Assembly: GCA_021814695.1 (NCBI GenBank)
Contig: JAKAHY010000001.1
Span: 45,278 to 109,277 of the forward strand
Reading direction: 5' to 3'
From: a bacterium
GTDB lineage: Bacteria > Patescibacteriota > Minisyncoccia > UBA6257 > JAGOQP01
Length of the DNA stretch: 64,000 nt
Shown here: piece after piece, positions 16,909-51,917 of the stretch
Layout of the letters: each line of letters starts with the position of its first letter
Numbering within the stretch: position 1 is the stretch's first letter
Notes under the pieces: model-generated
What the model was told of the DNA's origin: nothing
What the model saw: only the letters and a program-made list of their open reading frames with translations
Databases searched by the model: none
Translations under genes and position numbers: made by a program

Positions 16909-17424
16909 TTATTCGAATTTCTTCACGTCTTTCGATTTATCTATAAACAATACTCCACCAAGATGATCTATCTCGTGTTGAAAAATTCTTGCCAAGAAAC
17001 CCTCGGCTTTGACCTTAACAGGTCTATTATTCTTATCATATCCGCTGACCGTAATTTTATCGGCCCTATCGACTGTCCCATAATATCCGGGAACACTAAG
17101 GCAACCCTCCTGGTCTGAAACTATTTTTTTGGAAATAGATTCTATTTTAGGGTTAAATATGGCATAAAACTTTCCCTGATAACCCCTACCATCATCGGAG
17201 GGAAGTTGAGCGACAAATATTTGCGCATTGACTCCAATTTGGGGAGCGGCCAATCCGATGCCATGGTTTAATACCATCATTTGCCTCATAAAAAGAACAA
17301 GATTGTTAATCTCCGATTTGGAATAATCCGAAAATTTAAAAGCTTTGGGCTTTTCCCTTAGGAAAGATTCCTCACTTTTAATTTTAACTGTCCAGATTTT
17401 TTTGTCGGTTTCTTTTTCGGCCAT
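16909..17424 (-). CDS. def: Peptide deformylase
   Basis: Motifs GIGLAAPQIG, EGCLSVPG and QHEIDHLGG. Confidence 0.9.
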   Translation of the reverse strand: MAEKETDKKIWTVKIKSEESFLREKPKAFKFSDYSKSEINNLVLFMRQMMVLNHGIGLAAPQIGVNAQIFVAQLPSDDGRGYQGKFYAIFNPKIESISKKIVSDQEGCLSVPGYYGTVDRADKITVSGYDKNNRPVKVKAEGFLARIFQHEIDHLGGVLFIDKSKDVKKFE

Positions 17425-17741
17425 GGTTCTTTTTTTAATTTTAATTTATTTAATAAACCTTTTTGTTTGATTAATTCCATGAAATAAGCGCCTCCATTGA
17501 GTACCTTTGGGCGTTGGAGGATATCTTTAGCAATCCCCATTAGAGTTTGCTTATCTATGTATTTAGCCAATTTTATATACAGAGCTTTATGCTTCTCGTC
17601 CTCAAGCATTTGGGCTATAACCAGTCCGGTGTGCTGAAAGTCTCTGTATACGTGGCTTTTTTCTTTTCGGCCGGCAAGTGTCTTCAGGTAATCTTTTTCA
17701 AGCATCATTCCAATGATATAATAGAAAGCTGATAAAACCAA
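17358..17741 (-). CDS. Hypothetical protein (lysine-rich C-terminus), 3' end overlaps def start by 67 nt
   Basis: The ORF is 127 aa. Its true stop and start are uncertain. Confidence 0.35.
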   Translation of the reverse strand: MVLSAFYYIIGMMLEKDYLKTLAGRKEKSHVYRDFQHTGLVIAQMLEDEKHKALYIKLAKYIDKQTLMGIAKDILQRPKVLNGGAYFMELIKQKGLLNKLKLKKEPWPKKKPTKKSGQLKLKVRNLS

Positions 17742-17746
17742 GATTT

Positions 17747-18346
17747 ATGCGACTTTTTATAGCGGTAAAAATACCGGATGAAATCAAAGAAAAAATCCAC
17801 AATTCCTTTTTGTATTCCAGAGACTCCCTTGAATTCGCTCGATTTACCGAAACTGACAATCTGCACATAACATTGGTATTTTTGGGAGAAGTCGAAGATG
17901 CGTTACTGGAAAGAATAAAAAGAATAGTGGAATCGGTCACAAATAAATATTCCCAAAAACGGATAGAATTAAGCGGTATTGTGATCGGACCGGATATAAA
18001 TACTGCAAGAATGATATGGCTTAAGCTTGGTGATGATTCTCAAAAATATCTTGAATCGATATCTCAGTCACTAAAAAAAGAACTAAAAGATAAAAATATC
18101 CTTTTTGACGGCAGAAATTTTTTTAATGGACATGTTACTCTGGCCAAGTTTGGCCAAAATTGGCAATCAAAATATGATAGTAAAAACGAAAAAGGAAAAA
18201 CCGAGGATATTAATTTTATAAAAGAAACGCTTCCCGAAACATTTGAGGCGCATTTCGATTCAAAATCCATAACTCTTTTTTCCTCCAAAAAAATAGACGG
18301 GAAGAGAATATATGAGCCGTTGTTTGAGTCGGATTTTAAAGGATGA
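17747..18346 (+). CDS. thpR: RNA 2',3'-cyclic phosphodiesterase (2H phosphoesterase, LigT/ThpR)
   Basis: Two HxT/Sx motifs (HITLVFLG, GHVTLAKFG). Confidence 0.8.
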   Translation: MRLFIAVKIPDEIKEKIHNSFLYSRDSLEFARFTETDNLHITLVFLGEVEDALLERIKRIVESVTNKYSQKRIELSGIVIGPDINTARMIWLKLGDDSQKYLESISQSLKKELKDKNILFDGRNFFNGHVTLAKFGQNWQSKYDSKNEKGKTEDINFIKETLPETFEAHFDSKSITLFSSKKIDGKRIYEPLFESDFKG

Positions 18347-18360
18347 TATAATTTTAACCT

Positions 18361-19656
18361 ATGGAATTTTTAAAAATAATCAAGAATCTTAAGCGGGCAG
18401 GCTCTGTTGCGATAATTGCTATTGTAGTTGCCGCCATTGTCGGGAGTTCTTATTATCTCGGATTTGTTAAGGGGCAACAGCAGTCCCAAAAAATTGTAGT
18501 TGAAGACGTTAAAAACATAAACAACCCTAACACGGGAGATTTTAGCCTCTTTTGGGAAGTCTGGAACGATATTAAATCACAATTTGTGACCGCTTCCAGC
18601 ACGGATAATAATCAAAATCTTGTTTACGGAGCTATTTCTGGCCTGGTCTCATCGCTTGGAGACCAATATTCGGTTTTTTTCCCGCCAAAAGAAGCAGCCA
18701 GCTTCAATCAGGAAATCAGCGGGAAATTCGATGGAATTGGAGCTGAAATCGGACTCAATGAACAGAATCAGATTGTGGTAATCGCCCCACTTAAAGACAC
18801 GCCGGCTTATAATGCCGGAATTAAATCGGGGGATATCATCATAAAAATTAATGGGGAATTAACAACCGGAATGTCCGTTGATGCGGCGGTTAAGCAAATT
18901 CGTGGGCAAAAAGGAACGACTGTTACATTAAATATCTACCGCCAAGGATGGAAAGATGCCAAAGACATACAAATTGTGCGGGATACTATTCAGGTTCCAA
19001 CCCTGGATTATAAGCAAATTGACGCATCCGGAAATGAGAATCCTTCCGGATCGATAGCTTACATAAGAATTTATAATTTCTATGAAAATGCGGATCTTCT
19101 TTTCTATCAATCCGCGCTCAGAGTTGCTACCTCCAAAACCAAAGGGATAATAATAGACTTAAGAGATAATCCCGGAGGGTATCTTGATTCCGCAGTCAAT
19201 ATAGCCGGATGGTTTGTAGATAAAGGAAAGAATGTAGTAACCGAAGAATCCAGGGATAATAAAAACAACGAAGTTTTTGTTTCCAAGGGGCCGTCTATTT
19301 TCAAAAACATGCCCTTGGTTGTCATAGTCAATAAAGGTTCGGCATCGGCATCCGAAATTCTTGCAGGAGCCCTTAAAGAAAGTGATGGGGGAACAATTGT
19401 TGGAGAAAAAAGCTTCGGAAAGGGGACTGTTCAGGAGCTGGTTCCGCTTAGCGGAGGCTCAATGCTTAAACTTACAATAGCTCACTGGGTCACTCCTCTT
19501 GGCCATTTGATAGACAAAAACGGGATTTTACCCGATATTATCGTGACAGCTCCGACATCAACCGCAACAACGACACAGAGCGGGTATGATAACGATTTAT
19601 CCAAAGATGTAGTATTCAAGAAAGCGTTGGAAGTATTGGATAGCAAGATAAAATAA
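18361..19656 (+). CDS. ctpA: Carboxyl-terminal processing protease (S41, PDZ-containing)
   Basis: N-terminal TM helix, a PDZ domain (GIKSGDIIIKING), and an S41 core (IIDLRDNPGGYL, VVIVNKGSASASE). Confidence 0.85.
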   Translation: MEFLKIIKNLKRAGSVAIIAIVVAAIVGSSYYLGFVKGQQQSQKIVVEDVKNINNPNTGDFSLFWEVWNDIKSQFVTASSTDNNQNLVYGAISGLVSSLGDQYSVFFPPKEAASFNQEISGKFDGIGAEIGLNEQNQIVVIAPLKDTPAYNAGIKSGDIIIKINGELTTGMSVDAAVKQIRGQKGTTVTLNIYRQGWKDAKDIQIVRDTIQVPTLDYKQIDASGNENPSGSIAYIRIYNFYENADLLFYQSALRVATSKTKGIIIDLRDNPGGYLDSAVNIAGWFVDKGKNVVTEESRDNKNNEVFVSKGPSIFKNMPLVVIVNKGSASASEILAGALKESDGGTIVGEKSFGKGTVQELVPLSGGSMLKLTIAHWVTPLGHLIDKNGILPDIIVTAPTSTATTTQSGYDNDLSKDVVFKKALEVLDSKIK

Positions 19657-21830: not shown

Positions 21831-22106
21831 TTATAAATTGACGCGTTTTTTGTATAATCTCATCTGATAAAGAACAACCAGAGAAAAAATCACTCCCGGA
21901 ATATTGGCAAAGACAATAAACCAGTCGTTTTTCAGGAATCCATATATAGCCCAGATAAGATAGGCGCATGTAACTATACTAAACATCAGTTTATCCAGGC
22001 CATCGCAGCTTTTTCTTCTGTAATTTACCCTGATTTGTGAGGGAAGGCCGATACAGGTGAGTATCAGCGATGTCGCCAGCGCCAGATAGCCGACAAACTG
22101 GATCAA
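21831..22106 (-). CDS. PQ-loop/SemiSWEET-like 3-TM protein
   Basis: 91 aa with 3 TM helices. The LPSQIRVNYRRKS motif in TM1 resembles the SemiSWEET PQ-loop. Confidence 0.55.
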   Translation of the reverse strand: MIQFVGYLALATSLILTCIGLPSQIRVNYRRKSCDGLDKLMFSIVTCAYLIWAIYGFLKNDWFIVFANIPGVIFSLVVLYQMRLYKKRVNL

Positions 22107-39117: not shown

Positions 39118-39447
39118 ATGCTTCCGATACACCACATAAATCTCAGAAAAAGAGCCTCCAAAACACTTGACCCGTATCCGCATCCGGAAAGATTAAAAAA
39201 TTTAATTGATAAAGCGGTTTATGCCGCCGCTTTATTGACTCCGGTAGTGACTATCCCTCAGGCATATCAGATATTTGCCGTAAAAAGCTCGGCCGGAGTT
39301 TCTGTTGTTTCCTGGATATGTTTTGCCTCAGCCAATATCGTATGGACAATTTATGGAGTAGTACACAAAGAAAAACCGATAATCATATCGAACATTGCAA
39401 ACTTCTTCATTAACATAGTTGTCATCGTTGCGGCTCTTATGTATTAG
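39118..39447 (+). CDS. PQ-loop/SemiSWEET-like 3-TM protein (paralog A)
   Basis: TVVTIPQAYQIF..KSSAGVS PQ-loop in TM1, with 3 TM helices. It is a paralog of 49447..49833. Confidence 0.55.
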   Translation: MLPIHHINLRKRASKTLDPYPHPERLKNLIDKAVYAAALLTPVVTIPQAYQIFAVKSSAGVSVVSWICFASANIVWTIYGVVHKEKPIIISNIANFFINIVVIVAALMY

Positions 39448-44096: not shown

Positions 44097-44167
44097 TGGG
44101 GGGTCGTCTAACGGTAGGACATGGGCCTTTGAAGCCCAGTATATAGGTTCGATTCCTATCCCCCCAG
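44097..44167 (+). tRNA. tRNA-Gln (anticodon UUG), CCA not encoded
   Basis: Acceptor TGGGGGG/CCCCCCA (U1:A72), D-stem GTC/GAC, anticodon stem TGGGC/GCCCA with loop CTTTGAA, T-arm ATAGG-TTCGATT-CCTAT, G73. A terminator hairpin follows at ~44171-44200. Confidence 0.8.
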
Positions 44168-44593
44168 CAAAATAAATACACTTTTGCGGTGTATTTTATT
44201 TTGCGGGGAAAAAAGCAAACTGCTTTGCTTTTGTCAGGGATTCGAACGACGGAGCATGTTCCGCTCAGCAGAGCGTAACGCGAGTCGGTGTCTAGACCAA
44301 TTCTACTCGACGGAGTAGAATTGAGTTGAAGGAGAATTCTTGTCCCCCAGCCAACTTGAGCGGAGTTATTCCGATCGAGACATATCATAACAAAAGACAC
44401 GCGCCGAGAGGCGTGCGTCTTTTTTTGTTATTTATCCTACCAGATTAGATCTTTTATACCAGGTTTATTTTTTACTACTCTGAACCCCTACTCTCCCCAA
44501 GAATTTTTATCAGAATTTAAAGCCTCATACCAAAGTTCTGAAGATTCTCATCATTTTGGCTGTCAAGTATGTAAAACTATTTTACATATATAT

Positions 44594-44622
44594 TTGCATT
44601 TGACTTAAAAATATGCTATAAT
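44594..44622 (+). promoter_or_regulatory. Sigma70-like promoter of lexA-like operon (TTGCAT-17-TATAAT), near-leaderless
   Basis: -35 at 44594-44599 and -10 at 44617-44622, only 6 nt before the ATG at 44629. The palindrome ATGTAAAA-CTA-TTTTACAT at 44569-44587 lies just upstream. Confidence 0.45.
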
Positions 44623-44628
44623 GGAATT

Positions 44629-45276
44629 ATGAATAAAATTCAAATAGAGCTTTTGAACCTCTCTAAGCACCAGGATTTAGGCTCAATGAGCCTACGCCAA
44701 ATAGCAAAGATTATTGGGGTTGAAAATAAGCCCCAGATTGTAAAACACCACCTTTTACAGCTAGAAAAGGCCGGATTACTGCAAATAAACCTCAAAAAGG
44801 GCTTCATAAGGCCTGTTAGCAGGGGTTTTGGGCAGGATTCTGGCAAGAATCAAGTATATTCACTTCCTATCGTAGGAGCCGCAAATTGTGGTCCAGCAAC
44901 CATATTTGCAGACGAGAGGATTGAAGGATATTTGAAAGTATCGTCAAAACTGCTCCCGAGAAAAAAACATGACCTTTTTGTCCTTATTGCCGAGGGGCCG
45001 TCAATGAATAAGGCTGAAATTCGTGAAGGTGTTGTAATTGAAGACGGTGATTTTGTTGTTGTAGATAAATCATACAAAAATCCAAAAAACGGAGATATTA
45101 TTGTAGCAGTAATAGACGGAATGGGAACAATCAAAAAATATAGAGAGGATAAGAAAGAAAAACTCATTATTCTTGAATCAGAATCCACTGAAAACTATTT
45201 GCCCATATTTATTCATGAAGGTGATGACTTCATGATAAGCGGAAAGGTCATTGATGTAATTAAGAAACCTAGATAA
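44629..45276 (+). CDS. lexA: LexA-like repressor (wHTH + S24 autopeptidase domain)
   Basis: N-terminal LexA-type wHTH. C-terminal S24 with Ser in GPSMN and Lys in TIKKY. The candidate Cys-Gly cleavage site (AANCGP) is UmuD-like. Confidence 0.8.
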   Translation: MNKIQIELLNLSKHQDLGSMSLRQIAKIIGVENKPQIVKHHLLQLEKAGLLQINLKKGFIRPVSRGFGQDSGKNQVYSLPIVGAANCGPATIFADERIEGYLKVSSKLLPRKKHDLFVLIAEGPSMNKAEIREGVVIEDGDFVVVDKSYKNPKNGDIIVAVIDGMGTIKKYREDKKEKLIILESESTENYLPIFIHEGDDFMISGKVIDVIKKPR

Positions 45277-45281
45277 ATACT

Positions 45282-48080
45282 ATGGCGGGTAAAATTAAAT
45301 TCCGGGTTCTGGAAGATAAACCTCTAGAGAATATAGACGGCGATTATTTTGGCCATCAGGAAATAGCAAACAGCATTATTGAGGTTATCAAAGAAGCACC
45401 CAAACCTTTTAATATAGGATTGTATGGACAATGGGGTGTAGGGAAAACTACCATATGCAAAATTATAAAGGATAAATTTTCAAACGAGAATGAGTATGAA
45501 GTAGTTTACTTCGATACGTGGAAATATCAAAGAGATTCTTTCCGTAGGCAATTTTTGATAAATTTGGACCAAGAGTTAAGGTTAAATCTTAACTATAAGG
45601 AAAAACTAAATCAATCACTGTCCATTCCGTACAATTTAAAATGGATGGATAGTATAAAATTATTTCTGGGAAATTTTTTATTCAGAACATTAACGATTTT
45701 AATATTTGCTTTTATTGCAGTTTTAATTTTTAGACAATTTATTACACCAATTCTTTCTGCAAATTATATAGATCTAGCAAAAAGACTCTCAGATCTTGGA
45801 ATTATTGGTATATTAATAACGTTTATACTTGAATCAATAAAACAATTTCAGGGTGAAAAAACTTTTAACAGAACAGATTCGGCTGAGGGATTTGAAGAAT
45901 ATTTTATAGAAGTTCTTTCTAAAATCCAGAAGAAAAACTTGATATTAATAATAGACAACCTAGATCGTCTTTCAAGCGTCGAAGCAGTGCGTTTGCTGGG
46001 AGATATTAAAACTTTTTTATCTGACGACAAATATCATGATGAAAAGGTAGAAAATAAAACTGTATTCATAATGCCTTGTGACAACAAGGCTCTAAATGAC
46101 CAGTTGTCTAAAGAATATGGTCCCGGTTTTGATACAGAGGAGTACTTGAGAAAATTGTTTAACTATTCATTCAAAATACCGAAATTTCTTAACATTGAAT
46201 TAGATAAACTTATCATTGATAAGTTAAATCAAACGTTAATTGACGAATTTCATGATAACTATGATTTAGTATTTATTCTGAGTTACGCATTCAGGGATAA
46301 CCCTCGAGAAATAATTCAATTCATTAATTCGCTGATCTCTCTTTACTTGTTAGCAAAAGAACGAGGCATTTCAAGAATAATAGAAAGGGATCATATAGCT
46401 TTTTTAGCTAAGGTACTTGTCTTACGAATGAAGTGGCCTACTCTGTACACGAATATAGAAAATCATATTCTTCGAACTGGCGATAAATTATCAGAGATTG
46501 TTGATAGCTTAGAAAATAGTTCAAATAAGGATCAAATAGTTGAATTTTTAGAGAGGACTTCTCCAGTTAATGATGAAGAGTACCAGGATATTTATTTTTC
46601 TATTAGACAAAGTGATGAGCAAAAAATGATTCCTGAATGGGATAGTTTCGTTTCTTCTTTATTGGACGGACGAATACCAGATGCCAACAAAATATATGAA
46701 TCAATAAAATCTAATAACAAAATAGAACAACTCGGAAAATTAATAATTGATTATTGTAGACGAAACCAAAAAAACGAGAATCTTCTATTCAATATATTTC
46801 TCTCATCCCAATCAATAATTCCACCTGACGATCTTAAACATTTTCAGGAAATGTTTCTTTTAGTATTTAAGAATATACATGATGATGTATTCGTGAAATA
46901 TTTAGATAAATTAAATTTTAACAGATTTTTTAGTAAAGGTCTGCAAGGATTGTCTGCTGCTAATAAAAAGGAACTTAGTAGTAAACTGGTTTCTATAATG
47001 AATTACGCCTCATCAATAGAAAGTATAGAAAAAGACAGAATTAAATTCCTTAAGACATTATTCGAAGTTTTAAACTCTGAAGAAAACAAAGGTAATTTTA
47101 ATTTAAATGATAAAAAAATAGTTAGTGCAAAAAACAACTTCATTGAACATATTAAATATCAAACAGTTTTTCCAGAGTCTGAGAAAGGGGCTAACCTTGA
47201 TATCAATACTCTAAAAAATATCTTGGATGTGATATCTGCGCTGAAACCTTTTAGCTCAGAATTTTATCGTTCCGGAATTTATCTCTTAAATAATTTATTG
47301 GGATGGCCACCATTGGTTGAAAATGATGATGCGAGAATCCTTGTCCTGGAGAAGAGTTTAGATTTTCTAGATAAACAAGCGATACCCTCTCGTGATGACG
47401 GTAGCGTTATTGGTCCAATTCTTAATACATTCACTACGCGGATTTTTAGTTGGTACAGTGCTCAAAAAACTATTGAAGAAAGATCTTTGTGTATAAAAAT
47501 ATTCCAGAAAATAAATGTTGATTTGAATCCTAGTAGGGACGCAGTAAATACATATATTAAAGATTATGTAGCGGATACTAGTAATAACTCTGACATAATA
47601 CTAAAAACACTTGGTAAAGAATTCTTGGTTACAGATAGTTTTGCTCGGTCTGGTTTAATAGAAAGGACAAAGACAAAAACAGATCTTTTAATCAGATTAT
47701 CTATAAAAAATAAACTAACTGATGATGAAAAGGCTCTTGTGTTTAATAGTTTACTTAATTCTGCTAACGAGGCCTTAATATTTTTGGAATATATAAATTA
47801 TAAACTTCCTCACGAACACGGTGGTGATTCCAACTTTCTTAAGAATATCATTTCGAGAATGATAAATTCTAGCATCTTTACCGATGCCGAACTCCTTAAT
47901 AAATGGTTGGAGGCAATTAATAAACTCGTCATACCTTCTGACTTACTCGATCTATTTACTAAGAAAATGAGACAAGCTAAGACGATGTCAGATCAGCACG
48001 CGGAGGTTATCTCTGACTTTATTTCAAAGAATTCAAAAATTTTCGGCGACCTTATAGTTAATGAATTCAAAACTAAATAA
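45282..48080 (+). CDS. KAP-family P-loop NTPase (932 aa) with intramembrane insert
   Basis: Walker A GLYGQWGVGKTT. Two TM helices are inserted after Walker A (LFRTLTILIFAFIAVLIF..., GIIGILITFILE), the KAP hallmark. Walker B LILIIDNLDR. Long alpha-helical C-terminal region. Very AT-rich. Confidence 0.8.
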   Translation: MAGKIKFRVLEDKPLENIDGDYFGHQEIANSIIEVIKEAPKPFNIGLYGQWGVGKTTICKIIKDKFSNENEYEVVYFDTWKYQRDSFRRQFLINLDQELRLNLNYKEKLNQSLSIPYNLKWMDSIKLFLGNFLFRTLTILIFAFIAVLIFRQFITPILSANYIDLAKRLSDLGIIGILITFILESIKQFQGEKTFNRTDSAEGFEEYFIEVLSKIQKKNLILIIDNLDRLSSVEAVRLLGDIKTFLSDDKYHDEKVENKTVFIMPCDNKALNDQLSKEYGPGFDTEEYLRKLFNYSFKIPKFLNIELDKLIIDKLNQTLIDEFHDNYDLVFILSYAFRDNPREIIQFINSLISLYLLAKERGISRIIERDHIAFLAKVLVLRMKWPTLYTNIENHILRTGDKLSEIVDSLENSSNKDQIVEFLERTSPVNDEEYQDIYFSIRQSDEQKMIPEWDSFVSSLLDGRIPDANKIYESIKSNNKIEQLGKLIIDYCRRNQKNENLLFNIFLSSQSIIPPDDLKHFQEMFLLVFKNIHDDVFVKYLDKLNFNRFFSKGLQGLSAANKKELSSKLVSIMNYASSIESIEKDRIKFLKTLFEVLNSEENKGNFNLNDKKIVSAKNNFIEHIKYQTVFPESEKGANLDINTLKNILDVISALKPFSSEFYRSGIYLLNNLLGWPPLVENDDARILVLEKSLDFLDKQAIPSRDDGSVIGPILNTFTTRIFSWYSAQKTIEERSLCIKIFQKINVDLNPSRDAVNTYIKDYVADTSNNSDIILKTLGKEFLVTDSFARSGLIERTKTKTDLLIRLSIKNKLTDDEKALVFNSLLNSANEALIFLEYINYKLPHEHGGDSNFLKNIISRMINSSIFTDAELLNKWLEAINKLVIPSDLLDLFTKKMRQAKTMSDQHAEVISDFISKNSKIFGDLIVNEFKTK

Positions 48081-48595
48081 TGATTCTTTTTAATAATCAA
48101 TTTAATAAAAAGACCTATCAAATTATAGCTTCTGTGACGATTGCTGTAATTTTGATCTTGGGATTCTTGGTGTTAGGTAATTACTTTTCTGAAGTAATGC
48201 TAATAGTTAGTTTTATTGTTTTTGGTATTTTACTTTTATTTTTTACGATCGCTGCCGGTCTGGCTGTTTTGAAAGCTCTGTTTTATGTGGCAGCAGAAAT
48301 TTCTCTGTTAATATATTTGTCTAAATCATATTGTGAAGTACCCGCTTCCAAACTGACGCTCGCTAGCAATAATGCACTAAAGAGTCTGCTAGTTGTTGGT
48401 GGGTTGTATATTGTGATTAGTTTTGGAAAATCTCTGATAGATAAGGTAAAAAGCGACTATAAAAATATTGAAAGTGAAAAGTGGTCCTGGGAAAAAGTAA
48501 CTACGGTAGCTTTCTATTTGTTATTTGCATTTCTGATTGTTTGGCAAATTTATAGAGTAATTGGACCGATAATTGTCAATTTGTGTATATATTAA
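48080..48595 (+). CDS. 4-TM membrane protein translationally coupled (TAATG) to KAP NTPase
   Basis: Its ATG overlaps the KAP stop by 1 nt. Four hydrophobic helices. Confidence 0.6.
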   Translation: MILFNNQFNKKTYQIIASVTIAVILILGFLVLGNYFSEVMLIVSFIVFGILLLFFTIAAGLAVLKALFYVAAEISLLIYLSKSYCEVPASKLTLASNNALKSLLVVGGLYIVISFGKSLIDKVKSDYKNIESEKWSWEKVTTVAFYLLFAFLIVWQIYRVIGPIIVNLCIY

Positions 48596-48639
48596 AAATT
48601 ATTCAGTAAAGGTCATAATTAATAATAAAACAAGACACC

Positions 48640-48936
48640 ATGACTAAATTTCATCCATCTCAAAAATTTACTAAGGTTAACATTGCCAAAGTTCCAAAAA
48701 ACAAAGCCATTATATATAAAATTAAGAGTCAGTCCGGCGACAATATATATACTGGAATTGCTGGACGCAGTCGTCCCCAAGAAAGATTATTAGAACATAA
48801 GAAATTCAAGAAAGATGCAATACCTGGAGGAGTAAAATTCCAGTATGCTCAAGCCAAAACAAAAGCTTTAGCACATAAGATTGAGAAATCAATCATTCGG
48901 AAAGAAAAACCAAGGTTTAATATCCAACACAAATAA
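48640..48936 (+). CDS. GIY-YIG domain small protein (UPF0213/YhbQ-like)
   Basis: AIIYKIKSQSGDNIYTGIAGRS...ERLLEHK carries the GIY...YxG, R and E/H motifs. Confidence 0.55.
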   Translation: MTKFHPSQKFTKVNIAKVPKNKAIIYKIKSQSGDNIYTGIAGRSRPQERLLEHKKFKKDAIPGGVKFQYAQAKTKALAHKIEKSIIRKEKPRFNIQHK

Positions 48937-48975
48937 AAAGGTCGATATTGATTATTTAATAAATTAAAAACATCA

Positions 48976-49290
48976 ATGGAAATACAAATTAAAAATCTTA
49001 GTGGTACAAGTGACAAAACTTGTACATGTGGCACTTGGTTAGATCATTGGGTAAAGATTAGCGGGAAACCTCTTCCTAATTACTGTTCTATATCCATGTG
49101 TTATCAAAAACCAGAGGTAGGAGCTCACGTTAAGAAAGCCGATCTTCTTAATTTTAGTACCTATATAGTTCCTATGTGCAAAGCATGTAACGCAAAGACT
49201 GAAGTTTTGACTCTTAAAGATTCAGACTTGCTTGTTTCTGCTAATGTGGCAGAAACTTGTGGAAAGCAAAAACCTTTACTTAGGCGGTAA
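48976..49290 (+). CDS. Cys/His-rich hypothetical protein (putative zinc-binding)
   Basis: CTCGTWLDHW...C...C...CKAC. A hairpin with a T-run follows at ~49326-49372. Confidence 0.4.
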   Translation: MEIQIKNLSGTSDKTCTCGTWLDHWVKISGKPLPNYCSISMCYQKPEVGAHVKKADLLNFSTYIVPMCKACNAKTEVLTLKDSDLLVSANVAETCGKQKPLLRR

Positions 49291-49446
49291 TTCAAAAACA
49301 TAAATACATAATATTTGCATCGAAAGCGACACGAGAATATCTCATTTTCGTGTCACTTTTGTCACTTTTTGACGCGCTCGAGATACGTTGTTAAATACTC
49401 CAAGATCGCTTAAAATTGGCATTATTGGGTCTAACGGTTAGAAGTT

Positions 49447-49833
49447 ATGTTCACAATTAAATCGCCACCTGAGCGGTTTTTTGATAGAATAAATAATAAA
49501 AATATGCTCAATATCCACCATCTTTCGTTAAGAAAAAGAATCTATCAAAACTTAGAACAATATCCCCATCCCGATAAGTTTAAAAACTTTATTGATCGTT
49601 TTATATATTTTGTCGGGATGATAAACCCGTTAATGACGTTGCCTCAAATCTGGCAAATTTGGCATTACAAAATAGGAGCCGGGGTATCGCCAATTTCCTG
49701 GTTCGCATATGCATTCACAGGAATAGTCTGGATTGTTTATGGCATTATTCATAAAGAAAAACCGCTTATTGTTCTAAACGGAATAATGACAGTTTTTGAT
49801 ATTGTTATAGCAATTGGGGCAATTATTTACTAA
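49447..49833 (+). CDS. PQ-loop/SemiSWEET-like 3-TM protein (paralog B; true start possibly M20 at 49504)
   Basis: HHLSLRKR...YPHPDKFKNFIDR and LPQIWQIW...KEKP align with paralog A (39118..39447). Confidence 0.55.
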   Translation: MFTIKSPPERFFDRINNKNMLNIHHLSLRKRIYQNLEQYPHPDKFKNFIDRFIYFVGMINPLMTLPQIWQIWHYKIGAGVSPISWFAYAFTGIVWIVYGIIHKEKPLIVLNGIMTVFDIVIAIGAIIY

Positions 49834-51659: not shown

Positions 51660-51917
51660 ATGTCTTTCTTTGTTTATGTTCTTAGATGTTCCGACAAATC
51701 TCTTTACACGGGAAGCACCAACAATCTTGAGCAAAGGATAAAACAACACAACAATTCAAAATCAGGCGCTCATTATACAAAAATACGCCGGCCGGTAACG
51801 CTTGTTTATTCAGAAAAGCTAAAGACGTTGGCGGATGTGCGACGGCGCGAAAGCGAAATTAAAAGCTGGCCCAGGCAAAAGAAATTGGATTTGATAAAAA
51901 ATAAATCCGGACAATAA
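51660..51917 (+). CDS. GIY-YIG domain small protein (UPF0213/YhbQ-like)
   Basis: FFVYVLRCSDKSLYTGSTNNLEQRIKQHN fits the GIY-YIG pattern. Confidence 0.65.
   Translation: MSFFVYVLRCSDKSLYTGSTNNLEQRIKQHNNSKSGAHYTKIRRPVTLVYSEKLKTLADVRRRESEIKSWPRQKKLDLIKNKSGQ

What the first reader, a model, noticed from the sequence alone, without database searches (positions are those of the whole stretch)
44097..49372. AT-rich island downstream of tRNA-Gln(UUG): LexA-like S24 repressor translationally linked to a KAP-family membrane NTPase and a 4-TM protein, followed by GIY-YIG and Cys-rich small proteins
Seen: immediately after tRNA-Gln(UUG) and its terminator, a near-leaderless promoter drives a LexA-like gene (wHTH + S24 with catalytic Ser/Lys and a Cys-Gly candidate autocleavage site). 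6 bp later comes a 932-aa KAP NTPase with Walker A, two TM helices inserted into the P-loop domain, and Walker B. Its stop overlaps (TAATG) the start of a 4-TM protein. A GIY-YIG nuclease-fold protein and a Cys/His-rich protein follow before a terminator. The whole block is markedly more AT-rich than the flanks. It lies between two divergent paralogs of the same PQ-loop gene (39118 and 49447). Established: KAP NTPases recur in phage-defence islands, and S24 repressors couple expression to RecA-mediated DNA damage or phage signals. tRNA 3' flanks are classic insertion hotspots. Inference: an SOS- or phage-inducible abortive-infection or defence-type module, NTPase plus membrane effector, of undescribed composition.
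Basis: partly seen in the sequence, partly recalled or inferred. Interest (0 to 1): 0.75.

Follow-up and report, generated by a model that had tools for sequence, protein, structure and literature searches.

The report
Repressor-led phage-defence gene cassette
A self-cleaving LexA-like repressor gene in an ultra-small (Patescibacteria) bacterium heads a horizontally acquired, AT-rich cassette whose main cargo is a membrane-anchored KAP NTPase of a kind recently shown to block phages; in related genomes the same repressor heads quite different defence genes, so the repressor marks a swappable defence slot, not a fixed new system.

Summary
tRNA-Gln(UUG) is followed by a leaderless promoter, an S24 repressor, a 932-aa KAP NTPase, a 4-5-TM protein, a GIY-YIG protein, a Cys-rich protein and a terminator. 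The cargo is 31% GC against 41% in the flanks (z = -5.2).

KAP relatives sit in restriction-modification operons and phage-like elements, so a defence role is well supported. Three points fail:
- The 4-TM protein is not a KAP-specific partner. It also ends S24-led operons carrying CBASS or other cargo.
- The tRNA is not a demonstrable insertion site. There is no integrase and no repeat.
- KAP single-gene defence was published in 2026.

The S24 gene (64-78% identical in hundreds of Patescibacteria contigs) keeps a conserved operator and leaderless promoter. A different, mostly defence-type gene follows it within 1-54 nt in 12 of 13 loci. In 7 of 13 loci the cargo ends at a conserved site (GTGTCAC-TTTT-GTCAC), present here at 49351-49368. 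In most relatives this arm lies beside a methylase, terminase and serine-integrase block, which the window lacks.

Best reading: an orphan repressor-plus-defence-cargo arm of a phage-like element family. It is a new variant of a known kind.

The parts
44097..44168 (+). tRNA-Gln(UUG). It is the left neighbour and is not demonstrably part of the cassette.
   Evidence: ARAGORN and Rfam at 64.9 bits. No copy of its 3' end occurs at the other border.
44570..44586 (.). Candidate operator: the palindrome TGTAAAACTATTTTACA (TGTA-N9-TACA), immediately 5' of the -35 element.
   Evidence: It is conserved as TGTA-N9-TAC(A/G) at the same position in the S24 promoters of L062, L063, L064 and L086, and less exactly in L085, L083 and L084 (alignments A2 and A5). 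The window has only 3 matches against 0.46 expected, and the other two lie inside genes.
44593..44622 (+). Sigma-70-type promoter: -35 TTTGCA, 18-nt spacer with TG, -10 TATAAT. The -10 ends 6 nt before the ATG, so the mRNA would be leaderless.
   Evidence: Promoter scan, 10 of 12 matches. The same TTGCA / TATA(A/C)T / 6-nt spacing is seen in L062, L063 and L064.
44629..45276 (+). LexA-like S24 autocleaving repressor (215 aa): N-terminal winged HTH, Cys87-Gly88 cleavage site, Ser125/Lys169 dyad.
   Evidence: PF00717 at 1.5e-19. TIGR00498 lexA at 81.8 bits, below the 110.95 cutoff. phrog_4 repressor at 5e-22. About 990 homologs, with the top 120 at 64-78% identity. Catalytic and cleavage residues are invariant.
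45282..48080 (+). KAP-family P-loop NTPase (932 aa) with a 2-TM hairpin inserted between Walker A and Walker B, and an all-helical C-terminal half (about 430-932).
48080..48595 (+). Small 4-5-TM membrane protein (171 aa), translationally coupled to KAP through the TAATG overlap. It recurs as a late gene of S24-led cargo operons.
   Evidence: No hit in Pfam, PADLOC, NCBIfam or PHROGs. Homologs: L005/L010 after KAP; L064 after an unrelated 1264-aa cargo; L086/L087 after a CBASS set.
48640..48936 (+). Stand-alone GIY-YIG (URI) domain protein (98 aa). It may have its own promoter.
   Evidence: PF01541 at 23.8 bits (cutoff 22.6) and PF20815 at 23.9 bits. Weak full-length alignment to the UvrC N-terminal domain 1yd6. 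No homolog in any held locus other than the same-strain contigs L001-L004.
48976..49290 (+). Cys-rich protein (104 aa) of a large uncharacterised family with consensus CxCGSWxxHW..C..C..GAHV..PLCxxHN..ETCG.
   Evidence: 1164 representative homologs at E <= 1e-3, mostly about 100 aa and stand-alone. Alignment A7. AF2 model at pLDDT 90, with no significant PDB fold match. Only weak Pfam hints.
49323..49387 (+). Conserved right-end site: inverted repeat GACAC..GTGTC (the terminator hairpin 49328-49354), tandem TGTCACTTT x2 (49351-49368), then GCTCGAGA (49376-49383).
   Evidence: Terminator scan. The same architecture closes the S24-led cargo in L062, L064, L067, L085 (hexamer changed to GTAAC in all copies), L086 and L088/L095. 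In L007 it lies next to the methylase-terminase block. TGTCACTTT occurs nowhere else in the window.

Best explanation
The segment from about 44.52 to 49.39 kb is an orphan 'repressor arm' of a family of phage-like integrative elements of Patescibacteria.

Proposed mechanism:
1. A LexA-like S24 repressor binds a TGTA-N9-TACA palindrome next to its own promoter.
2. It is transcribed as a leaderless mRNA that continues, without a terminator, into horizontally acquired cargo.
3. The transcript ends at a conserved hairpin-and-repeat site.
4. Because the cargo rides on the repressor's own transcript, it is made at a basal level. It would rise when the repressor cleaves itself at Cys87-Gly88, as LexA, UmuD and lambda cI do on contact with activated RecA. 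That links cargo expression to DNA damage or phage replication.

The main cargo is a membrane-anchored KAP NTPase. It most likely acts as a nucleotide-dependent antiphage switch, with the C-terminal helical solenoid carrying the sensing or effector activity.

The small membrane protein is a recurrent accessory of this slot and not a KAP-specific effector. The GIY-YIG and Cys-rich genes are additional cargo peculiar to this strain.

Shown here: the gene order, motifs and composition; conservation of the promoter and operator; variability of the cargo; the conserved right-end site; and the defence contexts of the homologs.

Inferred: repressor binding, co-transcription, RecA-dependent induction and antiphage activity.
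For: Anatomy:
-.
- There is no terminator between 44418 and the end of KAP. Junctions are tight: a 5-nt gap, then a 1-nt overlap.

Foreign composition of the cargo: z = -5.2, while S24 is not an outlier.

S24 family:
- About 990 homologs at up to 78% identity.
- Invariant Cys-Gly, Ser and Lys.
- Conserved operator, -35, -10 and 6-nt leaderless spacing.

Variable slot:
- In 12 of 13 distinct S24 loci the next same-strand ORF starts 1-54 nt downstream, and it differs between loci.
- The cargo scores as CBASS cyclase plus effector (1e-125 and 4e-72), OLD/AriA/GajA-like ATPases, type II methylase, KAP, or candidate defence families.
- The conserved right-end site lies 2.0-7.5 kb downstream in 7 of 13 loci.

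Link to phage-like elements:
- The methylase, TerS-like and TerL (phrog_38, 1e-79) block, often with a serine integrase, lies divergent from S24 in L061, L062, L064, L065, L067, L085, L086 and L088/L095. L063 keeps a recombinase fragment.

KAP as a defence gene:
- At least 10 of about 15 full-length homolog loci with enough flank have R-M genes directly adjacent. These include HsdR-HsdM-KAP-HsdS.
- Two more lie in the other cargo slot of the same element family (L006, L007).
- The fold is closest to Orc1/Cdc6, RdrA and BrxC.
- KAP NTPases with TM helices and unknown C-terminal regions protect against phage, and need both Walker B and the C-terminal region (PMC13552941).
Against: - No expression, binding, cleavage or phage-challenge data exist for this locus or for any member of this KAP clade.
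- The window lacks the integrase, terminase and methylase block, and no remnant of it is detectable. The 'orphan arm' reading therefore rests on comparison only.
- Four S24 loci (the window, L066, L083, L084) lack that block. L084 has an AlkB-like repair gene divergent from S24. This fits S24 being the cell's own LexA.
- No S24 relative above 46% identity was found on IMG/VR viral contigs. Only 4 of 64 TerL-bearing viral loci have S24 nearby.
- The function of the right-end site is unknown. A promoter-side TGTCAAG element does not co-vary with it in L085.
- No recA gene is visible in the window, and the rest of the genome was not available.
- Weak internal promoter-like sites precede the GIY-YIG gene, so the last two genes may be separate units.
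Confidence: 0.6

Rival explanations
1. S24 is simply the cell's own LexA, the master SOS repressor of Patescibacteria. Defence genes have repeatedly been captured just downstream of lexA, and no mobile element is involved in this locus.
For: - Unusually high conservation for a repressor: 64-78% identity over the top 120 hits, many labelled LexA by JGI.
- Nearly full-length match to TIGR00498.
- Shared operator across genomes.
- L083 and L084 sit among metabolic genes, with an AlkB-like gene divergent from S24 in L084.
- The S24 GC content is host-like.
- A published comparative study treats Patescibacteria LexA as a host regulator (Sanchez-Osuna et al. 2017). This is my recollection; the paper is not held.
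Against: - In 8 of 13 distinct loci, S24 at 29-78% identity to the window is adjacent to a homologous methylase-terminase block. In most of these a serine integrase is also present, and L063 keeps an integrase fragment. That implies long-term linkage.
- The cargo ends at a site that also occurs on viral contigs.
- The TIGR00498 score is below the equivalog cutoff.
- No second operator occurs in 64 kb.
Confidence: 0.25
2. Lambda cI-rexAB logic. S24 is an element repressor that activates its own promoter, so the cargo is expressed only in the repressed ('lysogenic') state and is switched off, not on, when the repressor is cleaved.
For: - The gene order resembles lambda cI-rexA-rexB: an S24 repressor first, a leaderless transcript, then a large protein, then a small multi-TM protein. 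The comparison itself is from my own knowledge.
- The palindrome lies just upstream of the -35 element and not over the -10. That position is compatible with activation.
Against: - No sequence or fold relation to RexA or RexB was tested or seen.
- Only one palindrome is visible. Lambda needs three operators for PRM control.
- LexA-type proteins are repressors of their own genes in all studied cases (established knowledge).
Confidence: 0.15
3. One reading: a dedicated two-component abortive-infection system in which KAP senses infection and the 4-TM protein is its membrane-disrupting effector.
For: - Translational coupling through the TAATG overlap.
- The same KAP-then-4-TM order in L005/L010, with a 20-nt gap.
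- KAP is itself membrane-anchored.
Against: - About 15 other KAP loci of the same clade lack any 4-TM homolog.
- 4-TM homologs follow CBASS (L086) and an unrelated 1264-aa protein (L064).
- Published KAP defence proteins work as single genes, and EF_KAP did not behave as abortive infection.
- The 4-TM protein has no PADLOC effector match.
Confidence: 0.15
4. A classical tRNA-targeted genomic island integrated at the 3' end of tRNA-Gln.
For: tRNA-Gln lies 460 nt upstream of S24, and the AT-rich composition begins shortly after it.
Against: - No integrase in or near the block.
- No direct repeat of the tRNA 3' end.
- 230 nt of GC-rich structured sequence and a terminator separate the tRNA from the cassette.
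- Homologous S24 arms elsewhere are not next to tRNAs.
Confidence: 0.05

Closest known systems
KAP P-loop NTPase antiphage proteins (EF_KAP and three metagenomic KAP proteins; PLoS Biol 2026, PMC13552941)
   Same: A KAP NTPase domain with transmembrane helices, followed by a long C-terminal region without known domains. They occur on mobile or defence islands marked by serine recombinases. In the published cases a single gene is sufficient.
   Different: This clade is about 930 aa with a helical solenoid C-terminal half, comes from Patescibacteria, and is untested. Here it is fused into a repressor-led operon.
QatA of the QatABCD system, PifA of the F plasmid, and PADLOC candidate PDC-S20
   Same: They share the N-terminal KAP NTPase domain: QatA 5e-24, PDC-S20 2e-20, PifA 7e-16.
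   Different: The matches cover only the first 290-430 residues. The NCBIfam QatA score is 103 bits against a cutoff of 600. There are no QatB, QatC or QatD neighbours.
RdrA (RADAR) and BrxC (BREX) defence ATPases; Orc1/Cdc6 AAA+ fold
   Different: There is no RdrB or BREX partner. Those structures have no TM hairpin insert. Sequence identity is only 10-15%.
Lambda immunity region cI-rexA-rexB, and other prophage or satellite defence hotspots such as those of P2 and P4 (my own knowledge)
   Same: An S24 repressor transcribed from a leaderless promoter, with defence genes on the same transcript. A variable cargo lies between conserved flanks, with different defence systems at the same position in related elements.
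   Different: No homology to RexA or RexB was shown. The lineage (Patescibacteria) is different. The conserved right boundary is a short DNA site and not a gene. The window copy has no prophage attached.
LexA / SOS regulon
   Same: Winged HTH plus S24 domain, a Ser/Lys dyad, a cleavage site at the LexA Ala-Gly position (here Cys-Gly, as in UmuD), and a palindrome in its own promoter.
   Different: It scores below the TIGR00498 cutoff. It is usually linked to an integrase-terminase block. No other operator was found in 64 kb.
Accessory genes embedded in type I R-M operons, such as prrC between the hsd genes (my own knowledge)
   Same: Homologs of this KAP at about 35% identity sit between hsdM and hsdS (L040, L041, L045). 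Closer homologs directly follow hsdR, type ISP or ResIII-endonuclease genes.
   Different: The window copy has no R-M gene within the cassette.

Membership tests
KAP family P-loop NTPase (PF07693) | Pfam model match above the gathering score | tested here: met
   101.7 bits against a cutoff of 20, covering residues 27-356.
KAP family P-loop NTPase (PF07693) | Walker A and Walker B motifs, with transmembrane helices inserted between them | tested here: met
   GQWGVGKT at 49-56, ILIIDN at 221-226, hydrophobic helices at about 124-150 and 165-187. Helices H121-153 and H163-188 appear in the AF2 model.
KAP antiphage proteins (PMC13552941) | Protection against phage that depends on Walker B and the C-terminal region | not testable with these tools
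   This needs expression and phage challenge. Only the architecture is shared.
QatABCD | QatA equivalog score | tested here: not met
   NF041923 scores 103.5 bits against a cutoff of 600, over the N-terminal 290 residues only.
QatABCD | Presence of QatB, QatC (QueC-like) and QatD (TatD-like) neighbours | tested here: not met
   The three downstream proteins have no PADLOC hit at all, and S24 has only marginal Csa3/CasR/Cas11f matches (E 0.0011-0.018). Pfam finds no such domains.
PifA | Full-length similarity to PifA | tested here: not met
   The best-scoring PADLOC PifA stretch covers residues 11-100 of 932, against profile positions 7-101 of 720.
PADLOC candidate PDC-S20 | Full-length match to the single-gene candidate model | tested here: inconclusive
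   E 2e-20 over profile positions 10-394 of 464, but only residues 9-428 of 932. The C-terminal 500 residues have no counterpart.
LexA (TIGR00498 equivalog) | Score above the curated cutoff | tested here: not met
   81.8 bits against 110.95, although profile positions 27-201 of 203 are covered.
Peptidase S24 autocleaving repressors (LexA / cI / UmuD) | S24 domain with a Ser/Lys dyad and a small-residue-Gly cleavage site | tested here: met
   PF00717 at 70.3 bits. C87-G88, S125 and K169 are invariant in 20 sequences.
Peptidase S24 autocleaving repressors (LexA / cI / UmuD) | RecA-stimulated self-cleavage and operator binding | not testable with these tools
   Only a conserved palindrome in the promoter supports this. 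No recA gene is visible in the window.
tRNA-integrated genomic island | An integrase, plus a direct repeat of the tRNA 3' end at the distal border | tested here: not met
   No repeat. No recombinase ORF or remnant.
S24-led cargo arm of the Patescibacteria integrase-terminase elements (defined here) | Conserved S24 promoter and operator with a leaderless start | tested here: met
   Alignments A2 and A5.
S24-led cargo arm of the Patescibacteria integrase-terminase elements (defined here) | Cargo on the same strand directly after S24, closed by the GTGTCAC-TTTT-GTCAC site | tested here: met
   The gap is 5 nt and the site is at 49352, 4.7 kb from the S24 start.
S24-led cargo arm of the Patescibacteria integrase-terminase elements (defined here) | A divergent methylase, TerS and TerL block with a serine integrase | tested here: not met
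   tblastn with 33 probes from five elements found nothing in the window except S24.
GIY-YIG nuclease superfamily (48640-48936) | Pfam match above the gathering score | tested here: met
   PF01541 at 23.8 against 22.6, and PF20815 at 23.9 against 22.4. Both are marginal.

The most novel reading that the evidence does not exclude
The compact elements of about 10-15 kb seen in L061, L062, L067, L085, L086 and L095 would be a previously undescribed family of phage-satellite-like integrative elements of Patescibacteria. Each carries a serine integrase, TerS and TerL, a ParB-type or N6/N4 methylase, and an S24 repressor, with no portal or capsid gene in the stretches examined. An SOS-type self-cleaving repressor heads a swappable defence cassette bounded by a conserved DNA site. 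The window would hold a domesticated orphan cassette that wires a KAP NTPase defence to the DNA-damage signal.
Probability: 0.3. Interest if true: 0.7.

Novelty: new variant of a known kind. Interest (0 to 1): 0.5.

Why it matters
Patescibacteria have tiny genomes, mostly lack CRISPR, and are poorly understood with respect to phage defence.

If the reading is right, three things follow:
1. A highly conserved LexA-like gene can serve as a simple genomic marker for finding defence genes in this huge uncultured lineage. Already seen downstream of it are KAP, CBASS, OLD-family ATPases, methylases and several unknown proteins.
2. These genes would be placed under a DNA-damage-responsive switch. That is a regulatory logic known from lambda rexAB but not described for this lineage.
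3. It offers a well-defined KAP clade for mechanism studies: about 930 aa, TM-anchored, with a helical C-terminal half, and most often embedded in R-M operons.

The locus in the window is one ordinary-looking instance. The family-level pattern is the more valuable part.

Tried and rejected
- **Border repeats.** I looked for att-type direct repeats of the tRNA 3' end and for inverted repeats at the borders. There were only chance-level matches.
- **Element remnants.** I looked for integrase, terminase or methylase remnants in the whole window with 33 protein probes. None were found.
- **GC-rich stretch.** Rfam at gathering and at E <= 1 on the 44169-44430 stretch gave nothing beyond the tRNA and two sub-threshold leader matches at the terminator. 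blastn against all held loci found no homolog.
- **S24 regulon.** I tested whether the S24 operator marks a regulon in the window. The two other TGTA-N9-TACA matches are intragenic.
- **Shared binding protein.** I tested whether the promoter-side TGTCAAG element and the right-end GTCAC repeats bind the same protein. There is no covariation in L085.
- **L064 protein.** I tested whether the 1264-aa protein in L064 is a divergent KAP. It is not (BLASTP E 0.24).
- **KAP on viral contigs.** The scan found only one distant hit, L033 at 25% identity.
- **S24 on viral contigs.** Nothing above 46% identity was found.
- **Cys-rich protein.** phmmer against PDB sequences gave E 0.19 at best. Pfam gave only weak TT_ORF2-like and RecA_dep_nuc hits. 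Foldseek of a confident model against the PDB gave nothing. My eye-based guess of an HNH-type nuclease is therefore unsupported.
- **4-TM protein.** The word-indexed search found only two further homologs.
- **Literature.** The Patescibacteria SOS paper is not held. Searches for phage satellites or S24-linked defence slots in this lineage found nothing relevant.
- **recA.** A motif scan of the window found none, which says nothing about the rest of the genome.

Full report
**1. What is in the sequence**

- tRNA-Gln(UUG) is at 44097-44168.
- After a hairpin and a 230-nt GC-rich stretch ending in a terminator (44399-44418) comes a promoter: -35 TTTGCA at 44593 and -10 TATAAT at 44617-44622. The -10 ends 6 nt before the ATG of a 215-aa ORF.
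- That ORF is an S24 peptidase with an N-terminal HTH. It matches PF00717 at E 1.5e-19 and TIGR00498 lexA at 81.8 bits, below the 110.95 cutoff.
- Five nucleotides later starts a 932-aa KAP NTPase (PF07693, E 6e-29). It has Walker A at residues 49-56, two hydrophobic helices at about 124-150 and 165-187, and Walker B at 221-226.
- Its stop overlaps (TAATG) the start of a 171-aa protein with 4-5 hydrophobic segments and no family match.
- A marginal GIY-YIG protein (98 aa) and a Cys-rich protein (104 aa) follow.
- A hairpin with an 11-bp stem at 49328-49354 closes the block.

The cargo (45282-49290) is 31.3% GC. Other 4-kb windows average 41.2 +/- 1.9% (z = -5.2), and the cargo is also a tetranucleotide outlier. 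The S24 gene at 37.7% GC is not an outlier.

The sequence comes from a Patescibacteria MAG, GCA_027423255.1. Identical copies occur in several metagenome assemblies.

**2. The KAP protein is a defence-island resident**

Full-length relatives at 30-60% identity are almost all from Patescibacteria. I collected their loci from genomes and metagenomes and annotated the neighbours.

| Locus | Identity to window KAP | Context |
|---|---|---|
| L008 | 55% | HsdM-HsdS-HsdR, then KAP |
| L009 | 60% | 1049-aa type ISP enzyme, then KAP |
| L011 | 55% | methylase, ClpP-like, ResIII-endonuclease, then KAP |
| L006 | 59% | restriction-endonuclease-domain protein, then KAP |
| L040, L041, L045, L048 | about 35% | KAP inside type I operons, HsdR-HsdM-KAP-HsdS |
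| L037/38, L043, L046 | about 35% | HsdM, then KAP |

In the first four loci the gap before KAP is 4-24 nt. More distant versions sit next to GmrSD, DUF4391-helicase and ResIII-endonuclease genes (L014, L019, L030).

At least 10 of about 15 loci with enough flank have R-M genes directly adjacent.

A 2026 paper shows that KAP NTPases with TM helices and uncharacterised C-terminal regions protect Enterococcus from phages as single genes. They need Walker B and the C-terminal region, and the one tested did not act by abortive infection (PMC13552941).

PADLOC and NCBIfam matches to QatA, PifA and PDC-S20 cover only the NTPase domain. No Qat partners are present.

**3. The S24 gene heads a variable slot**

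The S24 protein has about 990 homologs. The best 120 are 64-78% identical and many are labelled LexA. Cys87-Gly88 (the UmuD-type cleavage dipeptide, at the LexA Ala-Gly position), Ser125 and Lys169 are invariant.

I looked at the contexts of close homologs chosen for contig length and not for context. I added one locus reached through the 4-TM protein and several from viral contigs.

In 12 of 13 distinct loci the next ORF on the same strand begins 1-54 nt after S24, and it differs between loci.

| Locus | Cargo after S24 |
|---|---|
| window, L061 | KAP |
| L062, L086 | CBASS cyclase + 2TM effector (L062: PADLOC 1e-125 and 4e-72) |
| L085 | CBASS cyclase + 4TM effector |
| L067 | AriA/Old/GajA-like ATPases |
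| L083 | type II methylase |
| L063 | PDC-M36A candidate |
| L064 | 1264-aa protein with a weak PD-Lambda-4 hit |

The promoter is conserved in L062, L063, L064 and L086, and more loosely in L085, L083 and L084. It has a TGTA-N9-TAC(A/G) palindrome, TTGCA, TATA(A/C)T and 6 nt to the ATG.

**4. The 4-TM protein and the right boundary**

Homologs of the 4-TM protein are few. They occur in four places:
- after KAP in L005/L010;
- at the end of the L064 operon, whose large protein is unrelated to KAP;
- after the CBASS genes in L086/L087.

The protein therefore tracks the slot and not KAP.

The intergenic DNA after the Cys-rich gene carries a site whose architecture recurs at the end of the cargo in L062, L064, L067, L085, L086 and L088/L095, and beside the methylase gene in L007. 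The consensus is AAAGTGACAC, about 17 nt, GTGTCAC-TTTT-GTCAC-TTT, and often GCTCGAGA. In L085 every hexamer is changed to GTAAC.

In the window the unit TGTCACTTT occurs only there. On three other viral-contig loci (L089-L091) the same repeats form iteron-like or inverted arrays.

Its role is unknown. It could be an element end or att half-site, a terminator plus protein-binding site, or something else.

**5. Link to phage-like elements**

In 8 of 13 S24 loci the gene is divergent from a homologous block of methylase, a small TerS-like protein and a large terminase (phrog_38, E 1e-79). A serine integrase lies beyond it in L061, L062, L067, L085, L086 and L095. L063 keeps only an integrase fragment.

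From integrase to right-end site these units span about 9-15 kb. In the stretches examined they contain no portal or capsid gene. In L095 the terminase is followed by a reverse transcriptase, a helicase/methylase pair and the integrase.

KAP also occupies the other variable position of such units in L006 and L007.

The terminase family is common on viral contigs (64 loci), but only 4 of them carry S24. The window has no trace of the block.

**6. Interpretation**

The best reading is an orphan repressor-plus-cargo arm. S24 autoregulates a leaderless transcript that runs through KAP and the 4-TM gene, and possibly the two small genes, to the terminator site. Self-cleavage of S24 would raise expression on DNA damage or phage replication. 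KAP is the antiphage component.

Shown here: the anatomy, the composition, promoter and site conservation, cargo variability, and the defence contexts of the homologs.

Inferred: binding, co-transcription, induction and protection.

The main rival is that S24 is the cell's own LexA, with defence genes captured downstream (confidence 0.25). L083 and L084 and the high conservation of S24 favour it. The repeated linkage to the integrase-terminase block argues against it.

A lambda PRM-like positive control, a dedicated KAP plus 4-TM abortive-infection pair, and a tRNA-targeted island are less likely, for the reasons given under each rival.

**7. Novelty**

KAP defence proteins, repressor-linked prophage defence genes and variable defence hotspots are all known kinds. 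What is new is the combination and the lineage:
- a conserved LexA-like gene marking a swappable defence slot in Patescibacteria;
- a conserved closing site;
- attachment to compact integrase-terminase elements.

I found no description of this in the held literature. The key Patescibacteria SOS paper could not be read.

The locus in the window is one instance without the mobile part. I rate it a new variant of a known kind, with interest 0.5.

Noticed in passing
window 44169-44430 (+), chiefly 44203-44425: A GC-rich stretch between tRNA-Gln and the S24 promoter folds very stably: -98.3 kcal/mol, z = -6.6 on the + strand and z = -6.2 on the - strand. It forms a multibranched core and ends in an intrinsic terminator. 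It has no Rfam family and no homolog in any held locus. It may be an unknown small RNA co-oriented with the tRNA.
   Followed up: partly
L061, L062, L067, L085, L086, L095 (for example L062:736-9966): Compact units of about 9-15 kb carry a serine integrase, a large terminase (phrog_38), a small TerS-like protein, an N6/N4 or ParB-type methylase, an S24 repressor and defence cargo. No portal or capsid genes are seen in the stretches examined. They may be phage-satellite-like elements of Patescibacteria.
   Followed up: partly
L040, L041, L045, L048 (also L037/38, L043, L046): KAP homologs at about 35% identity are inserted inside type I R-M operons, between hsdM and hsdS. That is the position other operons use for accessory defence genes.
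   Followed up: partly
L089:2758-2776, L090:563-581, L091:4180-4271: The GTGTCACTTTTGTCACTTT site also occurs on other viral contigs, as iteron-like arrays of GTCAC units. In L091 it forms two inverted copies 54 nt apart around an AT-rich spacer, which looks like an origin or a divergent operator region.
   Followed up: no
window 48976-49290: The Cys-rich protein belongs to a large family of stand-alone proteins of about 100 aa: 1164 representative clusters at E <= 1e-3 and 365 at E <= 1e-10. The Cys/His pattern is conserved and the AF2 model is confident (pLDDT 90), but the model has no PDB fold match and the family has no Pfam model.
   Followed up: partly
window 39118-39447, 49447-49833 and 21831-22106 (-): There are two PQ-loop/SemiSWEET-like paralogs at 45% identity. 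A third small ORF of similar look is at 21831-22106; I judged that one by eye only. The copy just right of the cassette (49447-49833) is itself AT-rich at 33% GC, as is RsgA at 35.5%. The low-GC zone therefore extends beyond the conserved right-end site.
   Followed up: no
window 51660-51917: A second small stand-alone GIY-YIG gene (85 aa, PF01541 in the L001 gene table) lies 2.7 kb downstream of the first. A similar 81-aa gene lies in L086. Such mini GIY-YIG genes seem common in these genomes.
   Followed up: no
L011:6654-7262: A ClpP-like protease gene (PF00574, 4.6e-21) sits between the methylase and the ResIII-endonuclease genes of an R-M-like operon that ends with a KAP gene.
   Followed up: no
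L061:1-2878 and 17291-19371: The second S24-KAP locus is flanked by other conflict-system genes. SMEK_N/CTD12, MC8 and DUF2326 lie upstream, and SMODS plus SLATT lie downstream.
   Followed up: no
L095:11375-12490: A reverse transcriptase (PADLOC RT 5e-49, DRT-like; phrog_1423 3e-112) occupies the variable position between the terminase and the integrase of an S24-bearing element.
   Followed up: no
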